From the NCBI RefSeq assembly GCF_028641065.1, contig NC_073412.1, positions 5,084,001-5,148,000 on the forward strand: a stretch of 64,000 nucleotides of DNA, in the 5' to 3' direction. The first letter of the stretch is position 1; each line of letters starts with the position of its first letter. Below the pieces are notes generated by a model. It was given only the letters and a program-made list of their open reading frames with translations, searched no databases and was not told where the DNA came from. The position numbers were made by a program, and so were the translations under genes. Below are positions 900-63,454 of this stretch, one piece after another. The DNA is from Leucoraja erinacea (Eukaryota).

Positions 900-1619
900 A
901 TTATTATACTATCTTGAAAAATGCTTTAAAAATGCCTGGGAGAATTCATGTAAAGTCTAATTTTTGTGCATCAGGTAATCGGTGACCCATGCCCGTGTAC
1001 AGGTTGGATGGTTTTACTTGTTTCACACTCAGGAACCTGATCCTTAATTCCCTTTGCTTCGATCGAACAGGAACCCTAATCTTCCCACCACTATCAGAGA
1101 ATTAAACTCCGGTGCCTGGGACTACATGCTTGGAAATGCTGCCCGCCCGAACACAATGGATACCTGGGTCACACGCCTGACACAATTGCACCCCTGGGTC
1201 AGACCGCAACATACCTGGAATTCTGGACTTTCTCCCAATAGTCGCGAGTACCTGAGAATCCAGGTGACTGGGTAATCCCATTCTACAGGCACACCTGGTC
1301 AGTCCTTCCCCAGATATACTTGTGTACATAGGTCACCAGCACCTGAGTCAACTCTTCCCCAGACACACTGGTAATATAGACCAGTCTTCCCTGGAACACC
1401 TGGATTACCCTTTCCCCTTTGCGCACCATGGGTATGCGGGTCATTCTGTCTCGAGGGTCACCTGTGGATAGCGCCGTCTCTCCCGCCCCCCTCCGGACAC
1501 CTCTCCCTCCACCCCAGGGCTCCTGGATCTCACTTCTCCTCATACCTGGGGACAGAGACCACTCTCTCCCACTTCCCCCTGATACTCTTTTCTCTCCCCC
1601 ACCCCCCCCCAGGCTCCTC

Positions 1620-3245
1620 TCCCCCCACCCATGGGCGGCGAGACCACTCTACCACTTCTCACACCTGGGCCCCTTCCCCCCCCCCCCCCCCACACCTGGG
1701 CACCAAGATACCTCTGCCCACCTCTCACCTGGGCCCCTCTCTCCCCCACACACCTGGGGACAGAACGACCTTTCCCTGTCACACCTGGGCCCCTCTCCCC
1801 CACACACCTGGGCCCCTCTCCCCCCTACACCTGGGCACCAAGACAGCTTTCCCTGTCACATACCTGGGCCCCTGTGCCCCACACCTGGGCACAGAGCGAC
1901 ATTTCCCTTTCATACCTGGGCACCGAGACACTCCTCCCCCCCACTCCCCTACACACCTGGGCATCGAGACACCTTTTCCTCTCACACCTTGGTCTCTCTC
2001 TCTCCCCCCCACACACCTGGGCACAGAGCGACATTTCCCTCCCCCATACACCTGTGCCCCACTCCCTCACACACCTGGGGACAGAGCGACATTTCCCTCT
2101 CCCCCACACCTGGGCATCGAGACACCTTTCCCTTTCACACCTGGGCATCGAGACACCTTTTCCTTTCACACCTGGGCATCGAGACACCTTTTCCTCTCAC
2201 ACCTGGGCCCCTGTGCCCGATACCTGGGCCCGTCTCCCCCACACACCTGGGCCCCTCTCCCCCATACACCTGTGCCCCACTCCCCCACACATCTGGGGAC
2301 AGAGCGACATTTCCCTCTCCCCCACACCTGGGCATCGAGACACCTTTCCCTTTCACACCTGGGCATCGAGAGACCTTTCCCTTTCACACCTGGGCATCGA
2401 GACACCTTTCCCTTTCACACCTGGGCATTGAGACACCTTTCCCTTTCACACCTGGGCATCGAGACACCTTTCCCTTTCACACCTGGGCATCGAGACACCT
2501 TTTCCTCTCACACCTGGGCACCTCTCCCCCATACACCTGGGCCCCTCTCCCCTACACCTGGGCACCAAGACAGCTTTCCCTGTCACATACCTGGGCCCCT
2601 GTGCCCCACACACCTGCGCACAGAGCGACATTTCCCTCCCCCACACACCTGTGCCCCACTCCCCCACACACCTGGGGACAGAGCGACATTTCCCTCTCCC
2701 CCACACCTGGGCATCGAGACACCTTTCCCTTTCACACCTGGGCATCGAGACACCTTTTCCTCTCACACCTGGGCCCCTGTGCCCGATACCTGGGCCCGTC
2801 TCCCCCACACACCTGGGCATCGAGACACCTTTCCCTCTCACACCTGGGCCCCTCTCCCCCACACATCTGGGGACAGAGCGACATTTCCCTCTCCCCCACA
2901 CACCTGGGCATCGAGACACCTTTCCCTCTCACACCTGGGCATTGAGACACCTTTCCCTTTCACACCTGGGCATCGAGACACCTTTCCCTTTCACACCTGG
3001 GCCCCTGTGCCCGATACCTGGGCCCCTCTCCCCCACACACCTGTGCCCCTCTCCCCCACACACCTGGGCACAGAGCGACATTTCCCTCTCCCCCACACCT
3101 GGGCATCGAGACACCTTTCCCTCTCACACCTTGGTCTCTCTCCTCCACACATCTGGGGACAGAGCGACATTTCCCTCTCCCCCACACCTGGGCACCGAGA
3201 CACCTGTCTCACCTGTGCCCCTCTCCCCCACACACCTGTGCCCAT
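1620..3245. repeat. C-rich complex minisatellite built on a CACACCTGGG core (main ~29-bp unit cacacctgggcatcgagacacctttcccttt)
   Basis: Dozens of CACACCTGGG cores with recurring sub-units. It explains the 508/365/266-aa low-complexity ORFs. Confidence 0.95.
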
Positions 3246-3599: not shown

Positions 3600-4233
3600 G
3601 GGTGATTTCACCAAAGGTCAAATGAGCGTAGATCCCCCCTCACGTGACCGAAAATTTTAACTGGAGGACATCTCTCAGTTTGGTACATGTAAGTGAATGG
3701 GGAAACACGCACTTTCCCACCCGTTAAAAACATGGAAAACGGCCGATATTTGAGCTGAAATTTTCTGTGCTAGTCGGTGTGACCGTGAAGCACAGCGACC
3801 TAAATGTTCAGGCAAAACAAAAGATAGAAAGTGAGGTAATTACAAGAGGGAACTGAAGGTGGAAAAACAGCGGAAGTGAACAGCGGACATTTGCCGTGGA
3901 GATTTTAAGATCCAAAATATCGGGAATTATCGCGTTTGCTCGCTGAATTTCATCAAAAGTGAGGCATTATTAACTTACTTTTGATGAAATTCAGCGAGCA
4001 AACGCGATAATTCCCGATATTTTGGATCTTAAAATCACCACGGCAAATGTCAGCTGTTCACTTCCGCCGCTTTCTACCTTCAAAATCGGCCATTTTCCAT
4101 GTTTTTAACGGGTGGGAAAGTGCGTGTTTCCCCATTCACTTACATGTACCAAACTGAGAGATGTCCTCCAGTTAAAATTTTCGGTCACGTGAGGGGAGGA
4201 TCTACGCTCATTTGACCTTTGGTGAAATCACCC
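3600..4233. mobile_element. Long palindromic (foldback) non-autonomous DNA transposon, copy 1
   Basis: Ends GGGTGATTTCACCAAAGG...CCTTTGGTGAAATCACCC; TATT on both sides (3596-3599, 4234-4237); hairpin centre near 3968; about 105 bp deleted from the right arm near 4082. Confidence 0.9.
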
Positions 4234-4264: not shown

Positions 4265-4938
4265 GTCCTTGGTCCTTGGTCCTTGGTCCTCCAAAATATT
4301 CCAAATGGAATTTAAACTGGAGGTGGTGGAGGGAAAACTTAAGCCAGAAAGGGTTTTGGGAAGAAAGAACTACCTTAAATTTAGTTGCATCTGGTTGGGT
4401 AACTATAGTTGGGTGAAGATTATTCCATGCTTTAATTGTGCGGGGGAAGAACGAATTGCTGTACACATCTGTCTTGGTAGCTGGAATCTCAAATTGGATC
4501 CAATGTCCTCAACATCTGTCTTGGTAGCTGGAATCTCAAATTGGATCGAATGCCCTCGTCTGCTCCTAATTGGTTTGGGTTTGGTGTAGGTCTTGTAGTC
4601 TATGTCGAGCTGACCATTTAACATTATGTAAAAACAGGTCAAAAAGTGAGCTTCACGTCTGTCTTGGAGAGGGTTCCACCCCGACCAGTGAATTCAGAAG
4701 TTTGGTGACACTCGCTTCTCTCTCATAGGTGTTAGTAACAAATCGAGCTGCCTGTCTTTGGACACGTTCGATGGAAGAAATGTTTTTATTTGTGCATGGG
4801 TCCCATGCTGCAACTGCGTAGTCCAAATGAGGTCTAACGAGGGTGAAGTATAGCTTCTCCTTGACAGAAGTTGAACAATGGTGAAAGTTGCAGCTCAGAA
4901 AATTTAGGACACCTGTTGCTTTCAGTGAGACTGGAATC
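4265..4938 (-). mobile_element. 5'-truncated LINE (CR1/Crack-like ORF2 C-terminus) with a (GACCAAG)n tail
   Basis: Translations LYFTLVRPHLDYAVAAWDP...IERVQRQAARFV and NSFFPRTIKAWNNL; tandem tail at 4266-4288; internal ~48-bp duplication at 4463-4546. Confidence 0.85.
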
Positions 4939-6618
4939 ACTATACAGCCATACTAAAAAAGAGCAACAAGACACACAAGAACAAGAGGAAGAAGTTTGAA
5001 CTTTATTGCCTTCCATCCCAGCGAAGAATGTGGAATCCACTGTGATGGATGTTTATGTTAACTTTTATGTGGTTGTGTGTCTTGTTGCTTCACTGTGTAT
5101 GGCTGTACGGTAACTGAAATGTCATTGTTCCTTAATTGGTACATGTGACAATAAACTGACCTTGAAATCTTGAACTACGTAAAAGTCAACATAAACTTCC
5201 GCCACAATGGATTCCCCACATTCCTCACTGTGATGGAAGGCAATAAAATCCAATCTCTTTCCTCTTTTTCTCGAACCATCCACAGTTGGAGAGATCGAAG
5301 CTCCCGCAGCCGGTGGTCGAAACTCCAATGATCGGGGCGGTCAAAGCTCCCGTGGCTTGGAGCTCCCAAAGTCGGTCCCTAACCAGGGACAGCGAGCTCC
5401 TCGATGTTAAAGTCCACAGGCTCCCGTAGTTGGAGCTCCCGAAGTTGGTCCCCAGCAGAGGCCGCCAACTCCACAATGTTAGGCCGTGGTGTGAACGGTG
5501 ATGCGATATGGAAAAGAATCACCTCCGTTGTTGTAAGAAATGTTTTAATTAAGTTTCCCCCAACCTCCCCCCCACCCCCATTCATTTGTTGTATATATCT
5601 CTCTACATCACCATCTATATCTCTCGTTTCCCTTTCCCCTGACTCTCAGTCTGAAAAAGGGTTTCAACGCGAAATGTCACCAATTCCTTTTCTCCAGAGA
5701 TGCTGTCTGACCCGCTGAGCCAGCTTTTTATGTTTGTCTTTACCTTAATAGGCAGGGTTCTCCCGGCCTACCCAGTTTTTTTTTGACATGGTGCTTTTAC
5801 TGAAAACTTTTCCAATATCCTGGAAGTAGCCAGCCTCTCGTTAACATCTCACCCAAAAGACAGTGCAGCAAAAAAGTTTGCCAAAATCTTTTACCATTTG
5901 AGCGCATCAGTGCATTTATCAGTGGAGGAGGTTAAAGAGCACAATGAGCTTTGGGAACTTTCATCTTTATGTAAAAGTCACCATGCTTTGGAGAAAACAA
6001 GTTAAGCAAACACAAAAACCATTTTGTTCAAACCCAGCATTCCTTTCCCAATGCCAATGGCTTTGCTTTGCCTTCGCAACACTTGGTGTTCAAGATTTCA
6101 AAGAGTTTTGTTTTAATCTGCCAAGTATACATTCATTGAATTATCAATTGCTTTTAATGTATGTTTTCCATTCCATGAAAAAGACATTCTTTATTTTAAT
6201 CTGAGCGAGTTGTCCTGCATTCTTTCCACTGGGTTATCGATCACAATGATCCCAGTCTTTTGGTAAGAACTCAGGAAAGTAATTGAATATATCTTTGGTT
6301 ACAATCCAGGTGATTATTCCATGTCAACATGCACCAAACCATAGTGATCACAAATCAACTATCAACATGCACCAAATCATAGTCTTAAATGAAACCAAAA
6401 AGTTAAATAGCAACATACAAACTTTCCGACATTACTTTTTTCCACACTTCAAATTTAGTCAGATCCTCATCAGTTTATCAGATTTTTTATCAGATCCTTG
6501 ATATGAATGTGGAGGAAGTGATAATTATTTAATAAATCAGATTTAGAACCTCAATGCATGGATCTTAAATAGTTAGTTTCTAGAACTTAAAAATGTAAAC
6601 AAGTTTGATCCCACTCTT

Positions 6619-6930: not shown

Positions 6931-7972
6931 TCTTTAAATTATTATTTTGTTCATTCTGCAGTTGTGGGAATCTCTGGGAAAATTGTATTTCTCATCTGCT
7001 CAGAGTTCTTTCAGCAAAACCAGAATGGTTTACTTGGTGACCACACTGATCTAGATCTGTACTCGCAGACTGCATATAGGGAGACACAAGAGACGGCAGA
7101 TGCTGGACACAACAAAGTGCTGGAGGAACTCAGCGATTCAAGCAGCATCTGTGGAGGGAATGGGCAGATGACTTTTCGAGTTGGGACACTGATTATAGTA
7201 GGAGAGAAAAAGTTGTAAAGGACATTCAGGGTGATAGCTTTCACTTGTACTTTGAAAGGAAAAAAAATGAGTTTCATGGTCACTAACTGATGGCAGCTGT
7301 TAATCTACAAATCATACACACTTTGTCGGGAACATTCTTAATGCCGTTGACAATTCATTCACTTTCACAACTACCTACATGTGGATGCAACATATGTTGT
7401 CTTTTTCTCTCCCGCTCACCGAAAGAACAGCATCTTTTCACTTGTCACCATCAAATCTCGTGAGCAGCAGGAACAATCAATTATTAACCAAGCAAATGTG
7501 TTGGCTGTTGAACAACTGAACACTAAGCTCAATGCACACAGGTTGATAGGATGCCCTCCAACACATCTGTGCCAATAAATCCCTGCAAAGAAGCGGAATG
7601 TATCAACCAAATAGATTCCAGAATTTGGGATCTTGGTTCTCTTTGCCGGTACGGACCCAAAACTCAGGTCCCTGATAACAGCATTTTTGGGCGACTGGCC
7701 TGTGTTTTGAAGACTCTGTGATGGGCCCACCACAATGAGCTTCTCCCCAAAAGTATTGGAGCGCGCATTCCCACTTAACGTTCTCACAAAAGATCATTAA
7801 CCCGACAATTAAGTTTCTCTCTCTCCACAGATACTTCCTGACCTGCTGAGTATCCCACAGATTTTATTTGTTCATGTAACATTTCATAAAACTCCGCTTT
7901 CCTTGGGTTATCTCACAGATTTGTTATTATAACTAATTTAGCAGCATCAACTCACTCAAAACAAGACTCTTA

Positions 7973-8186
7973 TGCCCCTGTCCCACTTAGGAAACCTGAA
8001 TGGAAACCTCTGGAGACTTTGCGCCCCACCCAAGGTTTCCGTGCGGTTCCCGGAGGTTTTTGTCAGTCTCCCTACCTGCTTCCACTACCTGCAACCACCT
8101 GCAACCTCCGGGAACCGCACAGAAACCTGGGTGGGGCGCAAAGTCTCCAGAGGTTTCCGTTCAGGTTTCCTAAGTGGGACAGGGGC
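7973..8186. mobile_element. ~215-bp palindromic MITE, copy A
   Basis: TIR GCCCCTGTCCCACTTAGGAAACCTGA... of about 80 bp, interrupted in the right arm by small changes. Confidence 0.9.
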
Positions 8187-8550
8187 CTCTTACCAATTTA
8201 AATAAAATTAAATCAAATTAAATAGAAACAGTCATTAGTGGAAGACACAATAGGAATATTTTCTACTTCACCTATGTACACCTTTGCTTCCTTCCTCATT
8301 TTCAGACGGTGCAAAGAAACTGCAAATTACAGCAGCACTTCATGTTTAAGATCTGAGGTAAATGTTTTCACTATATATTACGAATAGCGAATGTAGTGCA
8401 AGGCAGTTTACCTTCAAATTAGATATATGTCCATGGTAATCATGCAAAGGGTAGCTATAACATTTCAACAAGCTGCAAGACTATAAATACTGGTTCAAAT
8501 GCGTTTATAACTTCATTCAATGCAGGCATTATTGGCAAGTGATTCCCTAA

Positions 8551-8766
8551 TGCCCCTGTCCCACTTAGGAAACCTGAACGGAAACCTGTGGAGACTTTGC
8601 ACCCCACCCAAGGGTTCCTTGTGGTTCCCGGAGGTTGCCGGTGGTTGCAGGTAGTGGAAGCAGGTAGGGAGGCTGACAAAAACCTCCGGGAACCGCACAG
8701 AAACCTTGGGTGGGGCGCAAAGTCTCCAGAGGTTTCCGATCAGGTTTCCTAAGTGGGACAGGGGCA
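8551..8766. mobile_element. ~215-bp palindromic MITE, copy B (opposite orientation to A)
   Basis: Same TIRs, flanked by TAA...TTA; internal spacer is the reverse complement of copy A's. Confidence 0.9.
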
Positions 8767-9576
8767 TTAGTCTCTGTTGATGTCAAACAACCACAACCAT
8801 CTTAATTTGAAGTAAGACTCCATCCATCTATTCACTTAGTTTCCTCCCCACCTAATGATTTTTATATTAACGAAGACATACCTGGAGCTACGAGAGCTGC
8901 TGCCTCACAACGCCAGAGACCTGGGTTTGATCCCGACCACGTGTGCTGTCTGCGTGGAGCTGGCACGTTCTCCCATTGACTGTGGATTTCCTCCGGATTC
9001 CTCCCGCATCTCAAAGACATGCAGGGTTGTATGTAAAATAGCTTCTGCAAAATTGCCCCTAGTGACATCGGACTTGTGTGAACGGGTGAAAGATGGTTGG
9101 CACGGACTTGGTGTCAATGGGACTTTGCCATGCTGCATCCCAAAGAAATCTTATTTTGGTGTCAATGGCACTCTCGAGGTCACCTTTTCCCCCTTGCCTT
9201 ATCTTTGGACCAAATTTGAACCAAGGTCAAGAGCTGGTTGGCTTTGGCAAGGTCTACACCAAGCAGGTTACACATGAGAAACTGAAATGATTGATGATAG
9301 TCAATAATAACTTTGGTTCCTGAGCTCAAAGCTGCAAGGTTAATTCAACAAAGACAGACACAAAATGGTGGAGAAACTCAGTGGGATAGGCAGCATCTCT
9401 GGGGAGAAGGAATGGGTAATGTTACGGGTCTCAACCCGAAACACCTATTCCTTCTCTCCAGAGATGCTGCCTGTCCAGCATTTTGTGTCTATCTTCGGTG
9501 TAAACCAGCATTTGCAGTTCCATCATACAAGTTCATTCACTTGGTTTTCTGGCTCATCAGTAAATTACATGAGTTT

Positions 9577-22988: not shown

Positions 22989-23433
22989 CCCTCACGTGAC
23001 CGAAAAATTCTATTCACTGGAGCACAGGAGGTGATCTGTAGGGTACACAAGTGTTATAGATCAGGTAATGCATGTGCCCAGAGTAGTGAATGGGGGAAAG
23101 CGGAAAAAAGATTTCATAGGAATTCAACACCACACAAAATGGTGGAATGGAACAAGGCTGTCGATATTTGAGCTGAAATCCCAATGTTTGAGAAACAGTT
23201 AGCTTGTCGGGATATGGACCGTGAAGCACAGCGACCTAAATTTTTATCAGTAGAAAGTAAGGTAATTACAAGAGGGAACTGAAGGTGCCAATCCAGCGGA
23301 AGTGTTTAGCAGACATTTGCTATGGAGATTTACAGGTCCAAAATATCGGGAATTATCGCGTTTGCTCCCTGAATTTCATCAAAAATGAGGCATTATTAAC
23401 TTACTTTTGATGAAATTCAGCGAGCAAACGCGA
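22989..23433. mobile_element. Partial, scrambled copy 3 of the long palindromic element (left arm plus central hairpin)
   Basis: Matches ccctcacgtgaccgaaaa, gatatttgagctgaaa, gaccgtgaagcacagcgacctaaa and the centre gaatttcatcaaaa...ttttgatgaaattc. Confidence 0.8.
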
Positions 23434-24059
23434 TTTACGGTAATGGCTGCTCGTTGGTACTCGGGGCTCTCGTGGACATTTTTCAACATGTTGAAAAATC
23501 TTGCCGAGCGAGTCTTCCCGAGTACCTGCCGTCAGCGTTACGGGCCGCTAAGAGACGTCCCCGAGCTCCGACGTACCCGCTACGTTCATTCTCCGTGCTT
23601 CCCACGAGTTTGATTTTTTTTAAACTCGGGAGAGCTCTTGGAATGAACTCGTACCGTGGGACAGGGCCATCACGTTGCTTTGCAAAAAATTAAGTAACAG
23701 CTGCAGATTCAACAAGCACAGACAATGGAAAAAAATATCCCAGCGAGCACCGTTTCGTTTAACGCTCCATTTTCTAGGAATGTGTCTGGAACTCCAATCG
23801 AGGTATTACCATTTAGTCACACAACAAAAACATATCTTGAACATGCAAGCGACCGTAGATAAAACAGTTCATGCAAAGCTGCAGAATAAAGAATGCAGTA
23901 CAGGATCAGCAGCCAAAGCAGCAAAACAAGTCAGAGAAAGTTTCCAAAGATTTGACACTACGATCTTAAAACGCTCGCCCATCTAGCCTGTCCACACACG
24001 CATCTCCTCGTTGAAAATGATGGCCTAGGATTTTGTTTGAAGCATAATGAAGAAAATAC

Positions 24060-25785: not shown

Positions 25786-25954
25786 NNNNNNNNNNNNNNN
25801 NNNNNNNNNNNNNNNNNNNNNNNNNNNNNNNNNNNNNNNNNNNNNNNNNNNNNNNNNNNNNNNNNNNNNNNNNNNNNNNNNNNNNNNNNNNNNNNNNNNN
25901 NNNNNNNNNNNNNNNNNNNNNNNNNNNNNNNNNNNNNNNNNNNNNNNNNNNNNN
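25786..25954. other. Assembly gap (N run) in MPI intron 1
   Basis: Run of n characters flanked by G-rich sequence. Confidence 1.
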
Positions 25955-26579
25955 GGGGGGGGGGGGAGGTAAAGCTGGGGGGCAGGAAGATTATTCCCGA
26001 TGTTGGAGGAAGTCCTGAACAAGGGGTCACAGTTTAAGGATAAAAGGGAAGTCTTTTAGGACCGAGATTATTAAATCATTTTTTTACACAGAGGGTGGTG
26101 AATCTGTGGAATTCTCTGCCACAGAAGGTAGTTGATGCCAGTTCATTGGCTATATTTAAGAGGGAGTTAGATGTGGCCAGAGTTGGAACACATCCAATGG
26201 GCCAAATTACATTTTTATTTTATTCTAAGATATAAAAAGGGAGCAGAAGTAACAAACTACTGGAGGAACTTGGAGGATTAGACATCACCTGTTGAGGGAA
26301 ATGGTCAGACAAGAATTATTGTATGTGGAGGAGATGAAGCAGTAATTGAATGTTGAGCAAACGATAAACTGCTGAAGGCACTCAACGGGTCAGGCGGCAT
26401 CCATGAAGGGAATGGACAGACAGGGAGCTAGATGTGGCTAAAGGGATCAGGGGGTATGGAGAGAAGGCAGGTACAGGATGGGGAGGGGGAAGGTGGGGAG
26501 GGGACATGATCATAATGAACGGGGTGGGGGCTCGAAGGGTAGAGGATGGCCTACTCCTGAAGGGGAGAGGTTTCTAATG

Positions 26580-27084
26580 GGGGGTGATGGGGAGAGGACA
26601 GGGTGGGGGTGGGAGGGGGAGAGGACAGGGTGGGGGGGGGGAAGAGGACAAGGTGGGGGGTGGGGAGAAGACAAGGTGGGGGTGGGGAGGGGTCAAGGTG
26701 GGGGTGGGGAGGGGTCAAGGTGGGGGTGGGGAGGGGACAAGGTGGGGGTGGTGGAGGGGAGAGACATGGTGGGGGTGGGGGGGGAGGACATGGTGGGGGG
26801 GAAGGGGAGAGGGACATGGTGGGGGTGAAGGGGAGGGGACAGGGTGGGGGTGGGGAGGGGACAAGGTGGGGGGAAGGGGGAGGGGACAAGGTGGGGGGGA
26901 GGGGACAGATGGGGGTGAGGAGAAGGACAAGGTGGGGGTGGGGGAGGACAAGGTGGGGGTGGGGAGGGGACAAGGTGGGGGGGAGGAGACGATAAGGTGG
27001 GGGGGAGAGGACAAGGTGGGGGTGAAGGGGAGGGGATAAGGGTGGGGGTGGGGAGGGGACAAGGTGGGGGGTGGGGAGGGGACA

Positions 27085-27116
<32 letters not shown>

Positions 27117-27540
27117 AGAGGACAAACATAGAAACATAGAAATTAGGTGCAGGAGTAGGCCATTCGGCCCTTCGAGCCTGCACCGCCATTTAATATGATC
27201 ATGGCTGATCATCCAACTCAGTATCCCGTACCTGCCTTTTCTCCATACCCTCTGATCCCCTTGGCCATAAGGGCCACATCTAACTCCCTCTTAAATATAG
27301 CTAAAAACAAGGTGGGGGGGGGGGGGAAGACATGGTGGGGGTGGGGAAGAGGACAAGGTGGGGGGGGGGAGGAGAGGACAGGGTGGGGGTGAAGGGGAGA
27401 GGACATGGTGGGGGTGAAGGGGAGAGGACATGGTGGGGGTGAAGGGGAGAGGACAAGGTGGGGGTGAAGGGGAGAGGACAAGGTGGGGGTGAAGGGGAGA
27501 GGACAAGGTGGGGGTGAAGGGGAGAGGACAAGGTGGGTGG
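26580..27540 (+). repeat. G-rich minisatellite (ggggacaaggtgggggt-like), interrupted by a CR1 3' end at 27125-27302
   Basis: Repeated G4-G6 tracts; potentially G-quadruplex forming. Confidence 0.9.
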
Positions 27541-27647
27541 GTAGGTGTGTGGGTGAATGAGCAAAATCCTTCCCCTCAAGCCACTGCATGAGAGGCGCGG
27601 GCCCGCATTGCCGGCCGAATGAACCCGCCGCAGCTCCCTGTGCCCGA

Positions 27648-31374: not shown

Positions 31375-31950
31375 TGGCGAGATGGCGATCGACGTCATCG
31401 CGCCGAGGCCCCCCCCCCTCTCCGCCACGCCCTTTATTGTGACGTCACAGTGGGCGGGGGGCGGGGCTTGTTGGAGGGAGGTAGGTGGGGGGGGAGGGTA
31501 GTTCGCGCGTGCGCGCTGCCCGGACCCGTCGGGCGTCAGGAAGTCAGCGCGAGCCGGTGGGGGCGGGGGGGCCGGCGGGAGTGAGAGCGAGCGAGAGAGA
31601 GTGAGTTGTCCGCTAACTTCGACGGCCCCGAGACAACAACAAACATGACAGAGTTCGACGCCAACCCGTTCGCGGACCCGGTGGAAATAAACCCCTTTCA
31701 GGTAGAGAAAGCCGCCGCGCTTTCGCGTTCGTTTGTTCGTTCGTTCGTTCGTCGATCGATGGTCAAAACGAAATGTTCGGCTGGGCCTCAGCCGTTCTCG
31801 AGCGAAACCTAACTTGCTGGCTGGTGATTGACGGGGCGCTCGGCCAATGGAGAGGCAGCCCGTGGTCGACCCGGCCCCCAAAGTGGGCGGGACGTGGCCA
31901 GGCGGTTGATCAAGTTAGATTGTCGCGGCACAGCCTTTGCCTGTCGGACA
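31375..31950 (+). promoter_or_regulatory. SCAMP2 CpG-island promoter
   Basis: Perfect CRE TGACGTCA at 31440-31447, GC boxes, GCGCGTGCGC (NRF1-like) near 31505, CAGGAAGT (ETS) near 31537. Confidence 0.85.
31645..31701 (+). CDS. SCAMP2: Secretory carrier-associated membrane protein 2, exon 1
   Basis: MTEFDANPFADPVEINPFQ (NPF repeats; human SCAMP2 begins MSAFDTNPFADPVDVNPFQ); GT donor. Confidence 0.95.
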
Positions 31951-32015
31951 AAACTTTTAGTGCAAAAGTTATTGGCGAAAAAGGGTCCTGTAGCCTTCAT
32001 TGACAGAGTCAGGCT

Positions 32016-32460
32016 TTTGTTTCCCCCTCTCCTCCAAAACTTGTTTCCCCCTCTCCTCCAAAACTTGTTTCCCCCTCTCCTCCAAAACTTGCTTCCCCCT
32101 CTCCTCCAAAACTTGTTTCCCCCTCTCCTCCAAAACTTGTTTCCCCCTCTCCTCCAAAACTTGTTTCCCCCTCTCCTCCAAAACTTGTTTCCCCCTCTCC
32201 CCCAAAACTCTCCTCCAAAACTTGTTTCCCCCTCTCCTCCAAAACTTGTTTCCCCCTCTCCTCCAAAACTTGTTTCCCCCTCTCCTCCAAAACTTGTTTC
32301 CCCCTCTCCTCCAAAACTTGTTTCCCCCTCTCCTCCAAAACTTGTTTCCCCCTCTCCTCCAAAACGTGTTTCCCCCTCTCCTCCAAATCTTGTTTCCCCC
32401 TCTCCTCCAAAACTTGTTTCCCCCTCTCCTCCAAAACTTGTTTCCCCCTCTCCCCCAAAT
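32016..32460. repeat. 24-bp minisatellite (cttgtttccccctctcctccaaaa), about 18 copies
   Basis: Near-perfect tandem units; explains the LFPPLLQN repeat ORFs. Confidence 0.97.
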
Positions 32461-35400
32461 CTGTAGAGAGATCTGCAGTTCCTTCTAATTTAGAGTGTGA
32501 ACCTGACCATGACCAGGGTTTAAAGTGGGTAGGAAGGAACTGCAGATGCTGGTTTACATTTTCAGTGGAGCAGACCCATTCCTTCTCTCTACAGATGCAG
32601 CCTGACCCGCTGAGTTATTCAAGGAACTGCAGATGCTGGTTTAAGCCGAAGATTGTCACAGAATGCTGGATTAGTTCACTTGCAGTCTGAAGAAGGGTCT
32701 CGATCCGAAACGTCACCCATTCGAGATTGCTGCCTGACCCGCTGAGTTCCTCCAGCATTTTGTATCTATCAAGGGTTTAAAGTGAAGCAGGAAACAGGTG
32801 CAGCGCACTCCTTAAGAAAGGCCAATCCCAGAGTTTGAGTAACGTCCACACCCATTCCTTCATGTCGTCATTTTTTTTTAAAATAAACTAGAGTTGCTCT
32901 TTAAAATGAAGTATCATTTGGGATTATTTTTGCACGGATTTGCAACATAGGAACGAAGCATTCAGAAATCAAGACAAAATGCACAGGTATTAGAGAATCA
33001 CAAAGTGTTGGAGTAACTCAGCAGGTCAGGCAGTATCTCTGGAGAAAATGGACGGATGATGTTGTGGGTTGGGATCTTTCTTCAGACTGAGAGTTTTTGT
33101 CACAGTCACTATATCTGGCGATGCAGTTAGAATCCCTTATCATTATTCAGCAGAACTCTAGCTTTTGTAATGAAACTGCCTTGAACTGAAACGTTGACTG
33201 TTTTGATCTCCAAAACTGCTGTATAACTTGCAGAGTCTTTGTTCTTCAGATTATCAGCATCTTAAGTTTATTTATCTGCTTTTTGGTTGCCTGCTTTTGG
33301 TGTCTTCCAGCCAATATGTCATTACGTTACTTGTCCTTCTTCTTACCCTGCTTACCTTTTGCCATCATAAGCCACTCTGACAATCGAGTAGTTAATACCA
33401 CCTCCTCACTGTATGCTGGGCAAATAAATTTCTCTTAACTTTAGATTTGTTTATCTATGTTTACCTAATCAAATTTTTTCATTATTTCAACTTATTGCAC
33501 ACCTATTTTATCCTTTTCCAGAGAAGACTCGGACTATTTATTATTTCCTGATTATTCGGTATAATCACCTTATTTTTTATCCATCTTCAATGCATTTTAT
33601 GATCACAACTGTTTGTGGGACTATGTGTGATCTATTTTATTTCATCACTTCCTTGACGTAGAAATGTTGCTGCATCCTTATTTACAAATTGACTTAAATT
33701 GTCCAGTTCTACTTTTTAATTCTATTTTGTTTGTAAACTACCCCTAATTTATTATGGTATTTATCTATACCATTATATGTGGACCTGTATTTCTGCCTCC
33801 AAATACCATAAAGATCTTAAAATTGTTTCAGTGCTGGATATGGTGCTTTTGAAGAAAGTAAGACATCAATGTTTTGTGAATTTAGTATCATCAGCGGGTC
33901 AGATAGCATCTCTGGAGAAAAGGAATAGGTGGGTTTAGTCGAGACTCTTCTTCAGACTGAGTTTGGGGAAGGGGAAACGAGAGATATAGACGGTGATATC
34001 GAGAGATATAGGCGTTGGATTAAATTTGACATTGAACCACAAAGATCAATTGAGAATGAAGGAATAAAGAAAACGCTCATGGAGGAAATTCCTGAGCCTA
34101 GTCAAGGAATCTGAAACTACGGCACCATCGTTAAATGACAATTCAAGAGTTGGAGTAACGTGAGGCTGTAAAGTAGAGCATGAAAACTGGGATCGTTGTT
34201 GTATAATTAATGCATTACTCAACATTGAACCAGCTAGGTTAACAAACCTGGGTGGCGGTGGTGGTCTGAAGAAGGGTCGGGACCTGAAACATCGCCTATT
34301 TCCTTCGCTCCATAGATGCTGCCTCACCCGCTGAGTTTCTCCAGCATTTCTGTCTACCTTGGGTGGTGGTGTGTGTGACTTGGTACCGAATAGGATACAG
34401 GCAGGAAATTCTGAGTAAATCCAAATTTACTGAGGATTGAAAGGAGATAAAAATCATGAAATTCATAAATGGGGTCCTGGTTTGAACTCAAAACTCTTAT
34501 GTTAGTGGTGATTAAAACAAGTCGAGAGTGTTTAATTGACATATGTACTGACTATGGAACAATAACATTCTTACTTGGCCCATTAACACTATAACAGACA
34601 AATAAATATGTGATCATCAGTAATACAATACCAGGCCCAGTAATAGTGCAAAATCAAACTCTATAGTGCAATCAGTCCAAAATCCATAGTAGATTATAGT
34701 TAGTTAGTATTGTGCCATGTTCAAGAGCCTGATTGGTGCTGGGAAGAAGCTGTTCTTGAACATGAATGTAATGGTTTTCGGGCTTCTGTACAACCACCTT
34801 CATGGTAGAGAGATGGGAACATGGCCAGGATGGTGTGTGTCTTTTGATGATACTAGCTGCCTTTTTGAGGCAATGCCACCTTCAGCGGTGGGGAAGTCAG
34901 TACCTGTAATGGATTGGACAATGTTTACCACTTTCTGCAGCCCCCTGAGTGTTTCCATTACCCAACCAGGCCATGATGCAACCAGTCAGCAAGCACAGTG
35001 GGATTATAGAATTAACTGTTAAGTCTTTTTATCGAGTCCGCATCACAAGATTAGAAATTGTTCAACTAGAGCTGAACACCCTTCTCGGCATCTGCATACA
35101 GTTGCATCTTGCGCTTCTTGTGCGTGGTGGTGGAAAGATTGGTGGAAATAGGGCCATGATGTGAATGCTCTTTCCTTGACCCCAACTGTTACATAATAGC
35201 AGAAGAAGTAGGGCAGCAAAGGAGGAACACGGTCAGGTGAACAATTAGTAAAAGCTCATTGCATCTGGAGTAGATCTATGTTCTTCGATTGGATTCCCCA
35301 GTGATATCATTGTCTGGGATTTTTTTTCCATTATTTCACGTCTCAGAATTTAGCAGCTAGGCTGCAAAAATGCTTTTCATTTGGACTTAGATGCATATTT

Positions 35401-60650: not shown

Positions 60651-60826
60651 ACCCCTCTAGAGCAAAACTGGAGACACTCAGCAGGTCAGGCAGCATCTGT
60701 GGAGTGAGAATCAGAGTTAATGTTCAGGTTGGGCAACCTGGACTAAACTGGGAGGGAGGGAGGGGGCAAGAGAGAAAGAAAGAGAAGGGGGGGGTGGGAG
60801 GTTGGCTTTCACCGAAAATAGTATAT

Positions 60827-61864
60827 GCTCGACATAGACTACAAGACCTACACCAAACCCAAACCAATTAGGAGCAGACGGGGGCATTCGATCCAATTTG
60901 TGATCCCAGCTACAAAGACAGATGTGTACAGCAATTCGTTCTTCCCCCGCACAATTAAAGCATGGAATAATCTCCACCCAACTATAGGGTGATTTCACCA
61001 AAGGTCAAATGAGCGTAGATCCCCCCTCACGTGACCGAAAAATTTAACTGGAGGACATATGTCACTTCCGGTACATGTTAGTGAATGGGGAAACACGCAC
61101 TTTCACACCCGTTAAAAACATGGAAAACGGCCGATATTTGAGCTGAAATTTTCTGTGCTAGTCGGGGTGACCGTGAAGCACAGCGACCTAAATTTTCAGG
61201 CAAAAAAAAAGATAGAAAGTAAGGTAATTACAAGAGGGAACTGAAGGTGGAAAAACAGCGGAAGTGCTTAGCAGACATTTGCCGTGGAGATTTAAAATCC
61301 AAAATATCGGGAATTATCGCGTTTGCTCGCTGAATTTCATCAAAAGTAAGGCATTATTGCCTTACTTTTGATGAAATTCAGCGAGCAAACGCGATAATTC
61401 CCGATATTTTGGATTTTAAATCTCCACGGCAAATGTCCGCTGTTCACTTCCGCTGGATTGGCACCTTCAGCTCCCTCTTTAATTTACCTTAGTTTCTATC
61501 TTTTTTTTGGACTGTAAATCTAGGTAGCTGTGCCTCACGGTCACCCCGACTGGCACAGTAAATTGCAGCTCAAAAACTGGCCGTTTTCGATGTTTTTAAC
61601 GGGTGGGAAAGTGCGTGTTTTCCCATTCACTAACATGTACCAGATGTATAGCATGTACTCCACTTGAGATTTTCGGTCACGTGGGTGCGGATCTACGCTC
61701 CAGTGACCTTTCGTGAAATCACCCTATAGTTACCCAACCAGATGCAACTAATTTTAAAGTAACTCTTTCTTCCCAATAACCCTCTCTGGCTTAAGCCCTC
61801 CCTTCACCACCTCCAGTTTAAATTCCATTTGGAATATTTTGGAGGACCAAGAAACCAAGAACCA
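60827..61864 (+). mobile_element. CR1/Crack-like LINE 3' end (same family as 4265-4938), interrupted by the palindromic element
   Basis: Sequence on both sides of 60987-61724 joins into the reverse complement of 4265-4610; tail gaccaagaaaccaagaacca. Confidence 0.9.
60987..61724. mobile_element. Long palindromic (foldback) non-autonomous DNA transposon, copy 2 (738 bp, full length)
   Basis: GGGTGATTTCAC...GTGAAATCACCC; TATA TSD at 60983-60986 and 61725-61728; symmetric about a 4-nt loop at 61354-61357. Confidence 0.93.
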
Positions 61865-62376: not shown

Positions 62377-62822
62377 TAAATATACACACACACACACACA
62401 CACGAATATAGAACCAAGAGCCATATACTATAAAATAAATACACACACACACGCATTTCGTTGTCTCTGTACTGTACACTGACAATGACAATTAAAATTG
62501 AATCTGAATCTGAATCTGAATCTGAAATCAATAAATAAATTTAGCTACAAGGAATTTAGAAGTTCCATGCAATGCACAGAAACAGCAGCTAACACGTGAG
62601 ATTTGTTGCACAAAGTTCATGTTTAATTGCTTGCATAGATATATTTTCTTCTCCCCCGGAAGCATTATATATTTTCTTCCGAGGGAAATTGCTGTGTGCA
62701 TCATTCGGCGGTGTAAAGAGCAGGCTGTAGGTGGAGTCTGAGTCGCTAGATGTAAATATCCCCTTCCTGTGTTTTCCCTTCCCAGCCCCGTTCAGTCCCG
62801 TCCCGTCGGATGGATTTGTCGG

Positions 62823-62921
62823 ATGGCGTCTGGATGCGCTCCCCCCAAACTACAGGAATACATCCTCACCGAAAAACTGGGCAGTGGATCCTATGCCACT
62901 GTTTACAAAGCCTACAGGAAG
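62823..62921 (+). CDS. ULK3: Serine/threonine kinase ULK3, first coding exon (gene continues beyond the window)
   Basis: [33 protein letters not shown]|gtgagg; human ULK3 has [21 protein letters not shown]; syntenic with SCAMP2. Confidence 0.92.
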
Positions 62922-63454
62922 GTGAGGGACTGCGTGTATCTGTGTGGTGTTACTGTTTGGAAGACAGACACACACACAAAATGCTGGAGTAACTCAGCGG
63001 GACAAAGTTGTCCCGCTGAGTTACTCCAGCATTTTGTGAAGCAACATCTCTAGAGAGAAGGAATGGGGTCGAGACCTCTCTTCAGTCTTTGAGAACTCGT
63101 ATTAAACGCTGTGTTTATTTTTATCTCGTTAATGCCTTGTCAGAGAACGTACAATCTCCGTACACCCGTAGTCGGGATAATTATTTATTCATGTGTGTAT
63201 ATATTTATATTATGGTGTATGGCCACACTGATCTGTTTTGAAGTCAATGCCTACTATGTGTTCTGTTGTCTGAAGAAGGGTTTCTGCCCGAAACGTTGCC
63301 TATTTCCTTCGTTCCATAGATGCTGCTGCACCCGCTGAGTTTCTCCAGCTTTTTTGTGTAACCTTCGATTCTCCAGCATCTGCAGTTCCCTCTTAAACAC
63401 CTACTATGTGTTCTGTTGTGCTGAAGCAAAGCAAGAATTTCATTGTCCTATACA

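What the first reader, a model, noticed from the sequence alone, without database searches (positions are those of the whole stretch)
60983..61728. 738-bp fully palindromic mobile element with 4-bp TSD: candidate Sola2-like foldback family
Seen: the whole element is an inverted repeat with ~367-bp arms and a 4-nt loop (aaaagtaaggca-TTAT-tgccttactttt), and it has no ORF. The empty site is visible in the paralogous LINE at ~4390-4415 (minus strand cacccaacTATAgttaccc). Together with copy 1 (TATT on both sides) this makes a 4-bp AT-rich TSD with GGG...CCC ends the simplest reading. Established: Sola elements make 4-bp TSDs, and Sola2 is described with GRG...CYC termini and long TIRs, whereas Harbinger (3 bp), hAT (8 bp), Tc1 (TA) and piggyBac (TTAA) do not fit. 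Inference: a non-autonomous two-TIR derivative, possibly an uncatalogued family, able to form a large cruciform or dsRNA.
Basis: partly seen in the sequence, partly recalled or inferred. Interest (0 to 1): 0.7.

Follow-up and report, generated by a model that had tools for sequence, protein, structure and literature searches.

The report
Skate hairpin transposon is ISL2EU-derived
This 740-base hairpin is one of about a thousand gene-less copies of a known kind of cut-and-paste jumping gene (ISL2EU, not Sola2), built from two mirror-image ends that each hold a dead copy of the start of the transposase gene, and it is likely moved by its longer relatives in the same skate genome.

Summary
The inverted repeat is real (GGG...CCC 60987-61724), but its arms are 87% alike, not fully palindromic. 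The 4-bp TSD and Sola2 reading fail. Across copies the flanks are W-ATA-GGG...CCC-TAT-W, with a 4-bp direct repeat in 0 of 15 informative copies. Empty sites show element +4 bases. This fits a 2-bp AT duplication around AGGG...CCCT ends; a blunt A|T insertion of TAGGG...CCCTA fits equally well. The same ends enclose a 5781-bp element with 788-bp TIRs, a THAP-HTH-DDE_Tnp_4 transposase and a facing YqaJ gene, the ISL2EU (PHIS) layout; one such TIR is 96% identical to the right arm. Each arm is a decayed copy of the transposase's THAP exon, and the two meet at its splice donor. This copy belongs to a minority L-R hybrid subfamily, and its inner arms were likely made alike by arm-to-arm copying. 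RNA reads show the family's transposase spliced. Verdict: a new member of a known kind. Its TIRs are three times the published ISL2EU maximum, and I found no paper on ISL2EU in a skate. Repbase and Dfam could not be checked.

The parts
60986..61725 (.). Non-autonomous ISL2EU element, 740 bp, ends AGGG...CCCT (GGG...CCC core 60987-61724)
   Evidence: TIR identity to coding copies
60984..60985 (+). AT, left copy of the likely 2-bp target-site duplication (or target A plus terminal T if insertion is blunt)
   Evidence: sequence
61726..61727 (+). AT, right copy of the likely 2-bp target-site duplication
   Evidence: sequence
60987..61353 (+). Left arm, L-type; outer half of the family TIR; 85% to the L062 TIR, 95% to window copy 1
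61358..61724 (-). Right arm, R-type; 96% to the TIR of coding copy L062, 88% to L061
61127..61350 (+). Dead THAP exon in the left arm: ACG where the live exon has ATG, stop codons, a frameshift; ends at the old splice donor
   Evidence: tblastn 61154-61350 and alignment to the live exon; the live exon is Pfam THAP, E 4e-11
61361..61557 (-). Dead THAP exon in the right arm
   Evidence: tblastn
61354..61357 (.). 4-nt loop, private to this copy; the family centre is a 10-nt loop just past the THAP splice donor
60810..61860 (+). Host repeat (LINE-like, type not tested) split by the element; paralogous empty copy at ~4270-4610 on the other strand
   Evidence: (I21, I23); RNA reads skip exactly 742 bases
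3600..4233 (.). Copy 1: symmetric L'-L' type with a deleted right arm; its TATT left flank is a rare variant
   Evidence: (L157)
22989..23434 (+). Third, degraded partial copy that includes the hairpin centre

Best explanation
This is a non-autonomous ISL2EU (PHIS superfamily) element made of the outer ~370 bp of two long terminal inverted repeats joined head to head, and it is likely cut and pasted in trans by the family's THAP-HTH-DDE transposase into W-AT-W targets, likely duplicating AT. Shown: the termini, the flanks, the +4 net insertion, the coding relatives with the same TIR, the THAP origin of the arms, and splicing of the family's transposase RNA. Inferred history: (1) An ancestral short-TIR ISL2EU (like L063 and L065) likely had its left end, including the THAP exon, intron 1 and the start of exon 2, copied onto both ends. 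A tandem inner copy kept the working exon, giving 788-bp TIRs. (2) Internal deletion or template switching just past the THAP splice donor likely fused two arms into ~740-bp palindromes. (3) Symmetric L-L and R-R subfamilies likely recombined at that shared centre to give the L-R hybrid, which then spread on its own (20 copies, 4% mean pairwise difference). (4) In this copy the inner ~75 bp were likely made alike by one arm being copied onto the other.
For: Flanks: ATA precedes the exact 21-mer end 1946 times, against 26 BTA, 17 AVA and 17 with non-A at -1 (ends changed at both -3 and -2 were not counted). AT stands at -3/-2 and +2/+3 in 29 of 31 paired elements, with a 4-bp direct repeat in 0 of 15 informative ones. 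Empty sites were found for 14 of 77 elements; the modal middle was 4 nt in 12 of 14, and reads skip exactly 742 bases in 4 of 4 runs. Partner: 8 of 30 PF13359 loci share arm sequence at E<1e-20 within the transposase element, plus L042 by a nearby fragment. L061 is 5781 bp with 788-bp TIRs 99.5% alike. It carries THAP, HTH_Tnp_4, DDE_Tnp_4 and a convergent YqaJ+PHD gene, and has the PHIS D-K-D-D-P-R-E spacing (against PMC4122938). The L062 TIR is 96% identical to the right arm. Splicing: CT..AC joint 5478-5564 in 3 of 4 runs, 6 reads. Symmetry: among the first 100 exact ends on C1, 30 of 32 pairs have the same end type and 2 are mixed, against 15.4 expected. Both arms of one element share 12 of 80 doubleton alleles, against 0.5 expected. 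A 1-nt deletion on both arms occurs in this copy only, 1 of 77.
Against: No coding copy with an L-type TIR was found (best 85%). No single copy was shown to have both genes intact: L061 YqaJ has a TAA where L062 and L160 read through, L058-L060 lack YqaJ, and L062 has a stop in the transposase. The ends begin AGG, while Han 2015 says ISL2EU TIRs 'usually' begin GG directly after AT. Duplication of AT is not shown: 0 of 24 elements with a non-AT flank had it duplicated, so a blunt insertion fits equally. A doubleton allele shared by both arms could predate insertion if a rare subfamily was sampled once. No tree with curated ISL2EU proteins was built.
Confidence: 0.9

Rival explanations
1. Same ISL2EU family, but it inserts bluntly between A and T with no duplication, like its sister group Spy, and the element ends are TAGGG...CCCTA.
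For: It gives the same +4 net insertion. None of 24 non-canonical flanks is duplicated on the other side. Position -3 varies about as rarely as -2 and -1 (26, 17 and 17 against 1946). Spy inserts at AAA|TTT without TSD and is the sister clade (PMC4122938, passages).
Against: The literature gives ISL2EU a 2-bp AT TSD (PMC4482050 text and supplement 2). L058 keeps only A...T next to GGG...CCC with non-T/A outside; that is one event, with mirrored flanks. The one case with a non-AT host consensus (L099/L166) has no partner end.
Confidence: 0.25
2. Sola2-type foldback element with a 4-bp AT-rich TSD.
For: Net insertion is element +4. GGG...CCC ends. TATA...TATA in 13 of 27 copies. Sola2 makes 4-bp AWWT TSDs (PMC3627910, passage).
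Against: All 13 are the self-complementary TATA case, and 0 of 15 informative copies repeat 4 bp. Target TATG gives TATA...TATG (L074 locus). All 6 two-TIR elements seen with transposon genes inside (L058-L061, L160, L161) hold ISL2EU sequence; a seventh long one (L162) holds a LINE-like piece. The arms themselves come from the ISL2EU THAP exon.
Confidence: 0.01
3. A local foldback accident (replication template switch in a dead transposon end), not a mobile unit.
For: The inner arms of this copy show local copying.
Against: 20 dispersed full-length L-R copies with clean ends and unrelated flanks; a precise empty site.
Confidence: 0.01
4. L-R is the ancestral form (true left and right ends), and L-L and R-R arose from it by conversion.
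For: Mosaic arms exist (L021, L023, L078), so conversion between types happens.
Against: All coding copies seen with both ends have matching TIRs (L058-L061 arms 99.2-99.7% alike). Older L'-L' elements group with the L arm, and the R arm lies close to the L062 TIR. L-R is 2 of 32 pairs on C1.
Confidence: 0.15

Closest known systems
ISL2EU (= IS4EU) group of the PHIS superfamily (Han et al. 2014 PMC4122938; 2015 PMC4482050; e.g. ISL2EU_DRer / IS4EU-2_DR)
   Same: THAP + HTH_Tnp_4 + DDE_Tnp_4 transposase and a second ORF with YqaJ; PHIS catalytic spacing; AT-centred target with net 2-bp AT duplication; size 5.8 kb (published mean ~4.8 kb).
   Different: TIRs are 788 bp against a published 6-259 bp. 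The ends are AGG rather than GG. The preferred target is T/A-AT-A/T rather than A-AT-T. The TIR holds a dead THAP exon. The host is a skate, whereas PMC9179366 found none in elephant shark, gar or coelacanth.
Galileo, Drosophila foldback-like P-superfamily element (PMC4168063, passages)
   Same: Long, dynamic TIRs extended by recruiting transposase coding sequence; most copies are two TIRs with little or nothing between; material in one TIR spreads to the other.
   Different: P superfamily with a 7-bp TSD. It recruits the final piece of the ORF, whereas this family recruits the first (THAP) exon.
Spy (PHIS; PMC4122938, passages)
   Same: Sister clade; AT-centred fixed target; TIRs from 9 to 1474 bp by repeated expansion.
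   Different: Single ORF without THAP or YqaJ; AAA|TTT target with no TSD; invertebrates only in that paper.
Sola2 (PMC3627910, passage; original description not held)
   Same: G-rich ends, AT-rich target, net +4.
   Different: True 4-bp TSD and an unrelated transposase; neither is found here.

Membership tests
ISL2EU | Transposase with THAP, HTH_Tnp_4 and DDE_Tnp_4 | tested here: met
   L061: THAP E 4e-11, HTH 1e-13, DDE 1e-44; a public 502-aa protein 96% identical has all three
ISL2EU | Second ORF with a YqaJ exonuclease domain | tested here: met
   L061:2656-3861, YqaJ E 2e-21 plus PHD; one in-frame stop upstream in this copy
ISL2EU | PHIS catalytic spacing D(19-29)K(29)D(18-40)D(11-19)P(18-28)R(3)E | tested here: met
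   P0001: 22, 29, 21, 18, 23, 3; L061 has 30 in the second gap
ISL2EU | 2-bp AT target-site duplication | tested here: inconclusive
   AT on both sides in 29 of 31 and net +4 at empty sites: consistent, but not separable from a blunt A|T insertion
ISL2EU | TIRs usually start GG and are 6-259 bp (descriptive range in Han 2015) | tested here: not met
   AGGG start if the TSD is AT; 788 bp. The relative L065 has a ~19-bp TIR. This is a usual trait in the paper, not a strict criterion.
ISL2EU | The non-coding element shares its TIR with the coding element | tested here: met
   Right arm 96% to L062, 88% to L061 over 372 bp
ISL2EU | Transposase falls in the ISL2EU clade of a PHIS tree | not tested
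   No curated ISL2EU proteins were held as tool sequences
Sola2 | 4-bp TSD | tested here: not met
   0 of 15 informative copies
Sola2 | Sola-type transposase between the TIRs | tested here: not met
   The 6 two-TIR coding elements seen carry ISL2EU genes; no Sola profile search was run
   GGG...CCC would fit only if the ends lacked the invariant A/T
PIF/Harbinger | 3-bp TWA TSD and a Myb/SANT second ORF | tested here: not met
   Net +4 at empty sites; the second ORF is YqaJ
Spy | AAA|TTT target, single ORF without THAP | tested here: not met
   Target W-AT-W; two genes, THAP present

The most novel reading that the evidence does not exclude
A vertebrate ISL2EU family that was recently active grew its TIRs out of its own transposase first exon, so its ~1000 palindromic copies are dispersed templates for hairpin RNA 78% identical to the live THAP exon and silence the parent; and the family inserts bluntly at A|T, which would make the textbook ISL2EU 'AT TSD' a misreading and give ISL2EU the same no-TSD chemistry as Spy. 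Supporting hints: reads run through the hairpin centre in 4 of 4 RNA runs (12 reads), and three transposase-only copies are 99% alike. Silencing was not tested and the TSD question is open.
Probability: 0.12. Interest if true: 0.62.

Novelty: new member of a known kind. Interest (0 to 1): 0.32.

Why it matters
The element itself is an ordinary non-autonomous DNA transposon, and the Sola2 claim falls. Three modest points remain. (1) ISL2EU is present and abundant in a skate, with older relatives also in Amblyraja radiata, whereas PMC9179366 found none outside teleosts and proposed horizontal gain at the teleost base. (2) It is a clear case of TIR growth by capture of the transposase's own first exon, known for Galileo but far beyond the published ISL2EU TIR range. 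(3) PMC9179366 states that no proof of ISL2EU activity had been reported; young copies with an open, spliced transposase and a 740-bp substrate make a first assay feasible and could settle whether AT is really duplicated.

Tried and rejected
4-bp TSD: rejected. TA TSD with GGG...CCC ends: rejected, because empty sites show +4, not +2; one exception, L093/L167, is +2 and may be a TA slip. Telling AT-TSD from blunt insertion: 24 paired non-canonical ends gave 0 direct and 1 mirror. Of 18 extended non-canonical ends, only 2 had a partner terminus within 7 kb, and the one informative host site (L099/L166) had none; undecided. Search for an L-type coding copy among 30 PF13359 loci, 12 extended loci and 5 more: none found; the DNA search scored only 40 of 1378 candidates. 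The original Sola paper was not held (PMC id recalled). The run search listed no RNA holder by index: no evidence either way; raw reads were laid instead. Locus-specific transcription or A-to-I editing of this copy: cannot be told, as reads come from many paralogues and no DNA run of the same animal was laid. Earlier findings of this scan: nothing by sequence or words; 8 of 220 notes shown by place concern other elements. Literature searches for ISL2EU in skates or sharks listed no such paper. Repbase and Dfam are not available here, so prior curation cannot be excluded.

Full report
Observation. The window holds an inverted repeat at 60987-61724 (GGG...CCC, 738 bp) with 367-bp arms, a TTAT loop and TATA on both sides. 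The arms differ at 47 of 367 positions, all in the outer 287 bp, and no frame is open for more than 60 codons. Two more copies lie in the window, at 3600-4233 and 22989-23434. The only N stretch (25786-25954) is far away. A genome search gave 2750 candidates and scored 40; all 40 loci matched full length at 91-100%. An exact 24-mer end is found 1946 times, so there are roughly a thousand elements; this is a lower bound, since ends with T at position 13 or any mutation are missed.

Target site. Of 27 fetched copies, all have TA before GGG and TAT after the end, and 26 have ATA before. A 4-bp direct repeat occurs in 13 of 27, always the self-complementary TATA...TATA; the others read AATA...TATA, TATA...TATT and the like. 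In a re-count on 31 paired elements (25 of the 27, since L006 and L019 were not paired by the pattern; one extra element in L012; five from transposase loci), 0 of the 15 that are not TATA/TATA repeat 4 bp, and 29 of 31 have AT at -3/-2 and +2/+3. Genome-wide, the end is preceded by ATA 1946 times, BTA 26, AVA 17 and non-A 17. Paralogous empty sites were found in local data for 14 of 77 elements. The modal middle was 4 nt in 12 of them, and in the clear cases it is the first two letters of the left tetramer plus the last two of the right (TATA...TATG from TATG; AATA...TATA from AATA); in four (L003, L018, L026, L063) the commonest paralogue letters differ and the AT form is a minority. RNA reads from the host repeat skip exactly 742 bases in 4 of 4 runs (70-181 reads each). 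So the insertion adds GGG...CCC plus 4. That is either AGGG...CCCT with a duplicated AT or TAGGG...CCCTA inserted bluntly at A|T. I tried to separate the two with non-canonical ends: 0 of 24 had the odd dinucleotide on both sides, and the one site with a non-AT host consensus lacked its other end. The question stays open; the literature favours AT.

The coding partner. An AT target points to ISL2EU (Han 2015, PMC4482050: parts 1-2 of 4 read, supplement 2 whole, rows of supplement 1; Han 2014, PMC4122938: passages). A PF13359 search of the genome gave 151 matches; of 30 loci fetched, 8 share arm sequence within the element. L061:821-6601 is 5781 bp, flanked TATA...TATA, with 788-bp TIRs 99.5% alike. 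It carries a minus-strand transposase (THAP exon; HTH_Tnp_4 and DDE_Tnp_4) facing a YqaJ+PHD gene. The PHIS catalytic spacing is met. The closest public protein is a 502-aa little-skate protein, 96% identical, with THAP joined to the rest. L058-L060 are 3.4-kb derivatives, 99% alike, with an open transposase frame and no YqaJ. L062's TIR is 96% identical to the window's right arm and 85% to the left. Against this: no copy was shown to have both genes intact (L061 YqaJ has a stop that L062 and L160 lack), no L-type coding copy was found, and no tree with curated ISL2EU proteins was built. RNA reads cover the transposase, mostly sense in the stranded run X13, and cross the THAP intron (CT..AC) in 3 of 4 runs with 6 reads in all; the runs were added by species label and the reads come from several copies.

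What the arms are. Each arm matches the THAP exon (tblastn E 2e-14 and 1e-13; 78% DNA identity to the live exon), with ACG for ATG, stops and a frameshift, and it aligns end to end with the left ends of older relatives L063 and L065 at 62-67%. L065 has only a ~19-bp TIR. Those relatives also show W-ATA-GGG flanks, and their proteins cluster with Amblyraja radiata proteins, while the long-TIR transposase cluster has 3 of 3 members from Leucoraja. In L061 the TIR runs on through the intron into the start of exon 2, and a second, working THAP exon follows inside. I infer that the left end was duplicated in tandem and copied onto both termini. Galileo shows the same kind of TIR growth by recruiting ORF sequence (PMC4168063, passages). 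The palindrome's centre lies just past the THAP splice donor, where a CTT microhomology joins one arm to the inverted other (read).

Why the arms are 87% alike. The differences are subfamily marks, not decay: in 20 L-R copies each arm is 93-99.7% like the same arm of the window copy, with a mean pairwise difference of 4.0%. Most elements are symmetric. Among the first 100 exact ends listed on C1, 32 pairs formed: 18 R-R, 12 L-L and 2 mixed, against 15.4 mixed expected. The L arm groups with older L'-L' elements and the R arm lies close to the L062 TIR, so L-R is likely a later hybrid. Arms also copy each other: 12 of 80 doubleton alleles sit on both arms of one element against 0.5 expected, mosaic arms occur (L021, L023), and L058 has 18 bp of flank mirrored on the other side. 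The window copy alone of 77 has a 1-nt deletion on both arms, and it alone of 24 matched centres has the perfected 4-nt loop. Nearly all RNA reads at 61360 show the family letter instead.

Hairpin potential. The 740-nt RNA folds with 656 bases paired, -544 kcal/mol (no shuffle control). Twelve reads in 4 runs cross a hairpin centre, so some copies are read through, though strand-switch joints can be library artefacts. This copy lies about 1 kb upstream of the first RNA-covered part of ULK3 (exon 62823-62921, best PDB match ULK3 E 9e-9), with no coverage at 62414-62674, part of which the tool skipped as repeat. Nothing shows that this copy is transcribed, edited or regulates ULK3.

Comparison and novelty. 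It departs from published ISL2EU in TIR length (788 against 6-259 bp) and in the extra terminal A. PMC9179366 (passages) found no ISL2EU in elephant shark, gar or coelacanth and knew of no proof of ISL2EU activity. PMC12730594 and PMC4455052 (passages) were read for classification only. Four searches (listings only) showed no paper on ISL2EU in skates. Repbase and Dfam could not be searched, and Han's spreadsheet supplement was not read, so the family may be curated already. Verdict: real, explained, a new member of a known kind; interest 0.32.

Noticed in passing
L058:1043-1060 and 4454-4471 (G000:C38): A 3.4-kb transposase-bearing copy has 18 bp of host flank mirrored as a perfect inverted repeat on both sides and lacks the AT target; arm-to-arm copying likely ran past the end into the flank.
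   Followed up: partly
window 7964-8775: Another element with ~173-bp inverted ends 91% alike (ends read GCCCCTGTCCCACTT... and ...AAGTGGGACAGGGGC), unrelated to this family; not classified.
   Followed up: no
window 62675-62922: First coding exon of a ULK3 orthologue on the + strand (best PDB match ULK3); RNA coverage starts about 62700.
   Followed up: partly
L038-L056 (G000, many contigs): Other DDE_Tnp_4 families with open ~445-465-aa frames and Plant_tran similarity (L066, L067 tested; Harbinger-like), some copies 97-99% alike; PMC9179366 found no Harbinger in elephant shark.
   Followed up: partly
L069:3790-5415: A second, unrelated ISL2EU-like transposase with THAP, HTH and DDE in one 542-aa frame.
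   Followed up: partly
L063:8336-9798; L076; L080; L092: Longer two-TIR derivatives (1.1-1.5 kb) with older arm types closer to the live THAP exon; they record earlier stages of the same family.
   Followed up: partly
L061:1492-1719: An older, 70%-alike inverted copy of transposase exon-2 sequence just inside the TIR at the YqaJ end, suggesting more than one round of TIR extension.
   Followed up: partly
L167 (G000:C9): One insertion adds only +2 against the host repeat consensus; a TA slip or a rare different cut.
   Followed up: partly
window 1500-3200, 26550-27560, 31900-32550: GC-rich minisatellite arrays with units of 22-31 bp.
   Followed up: no
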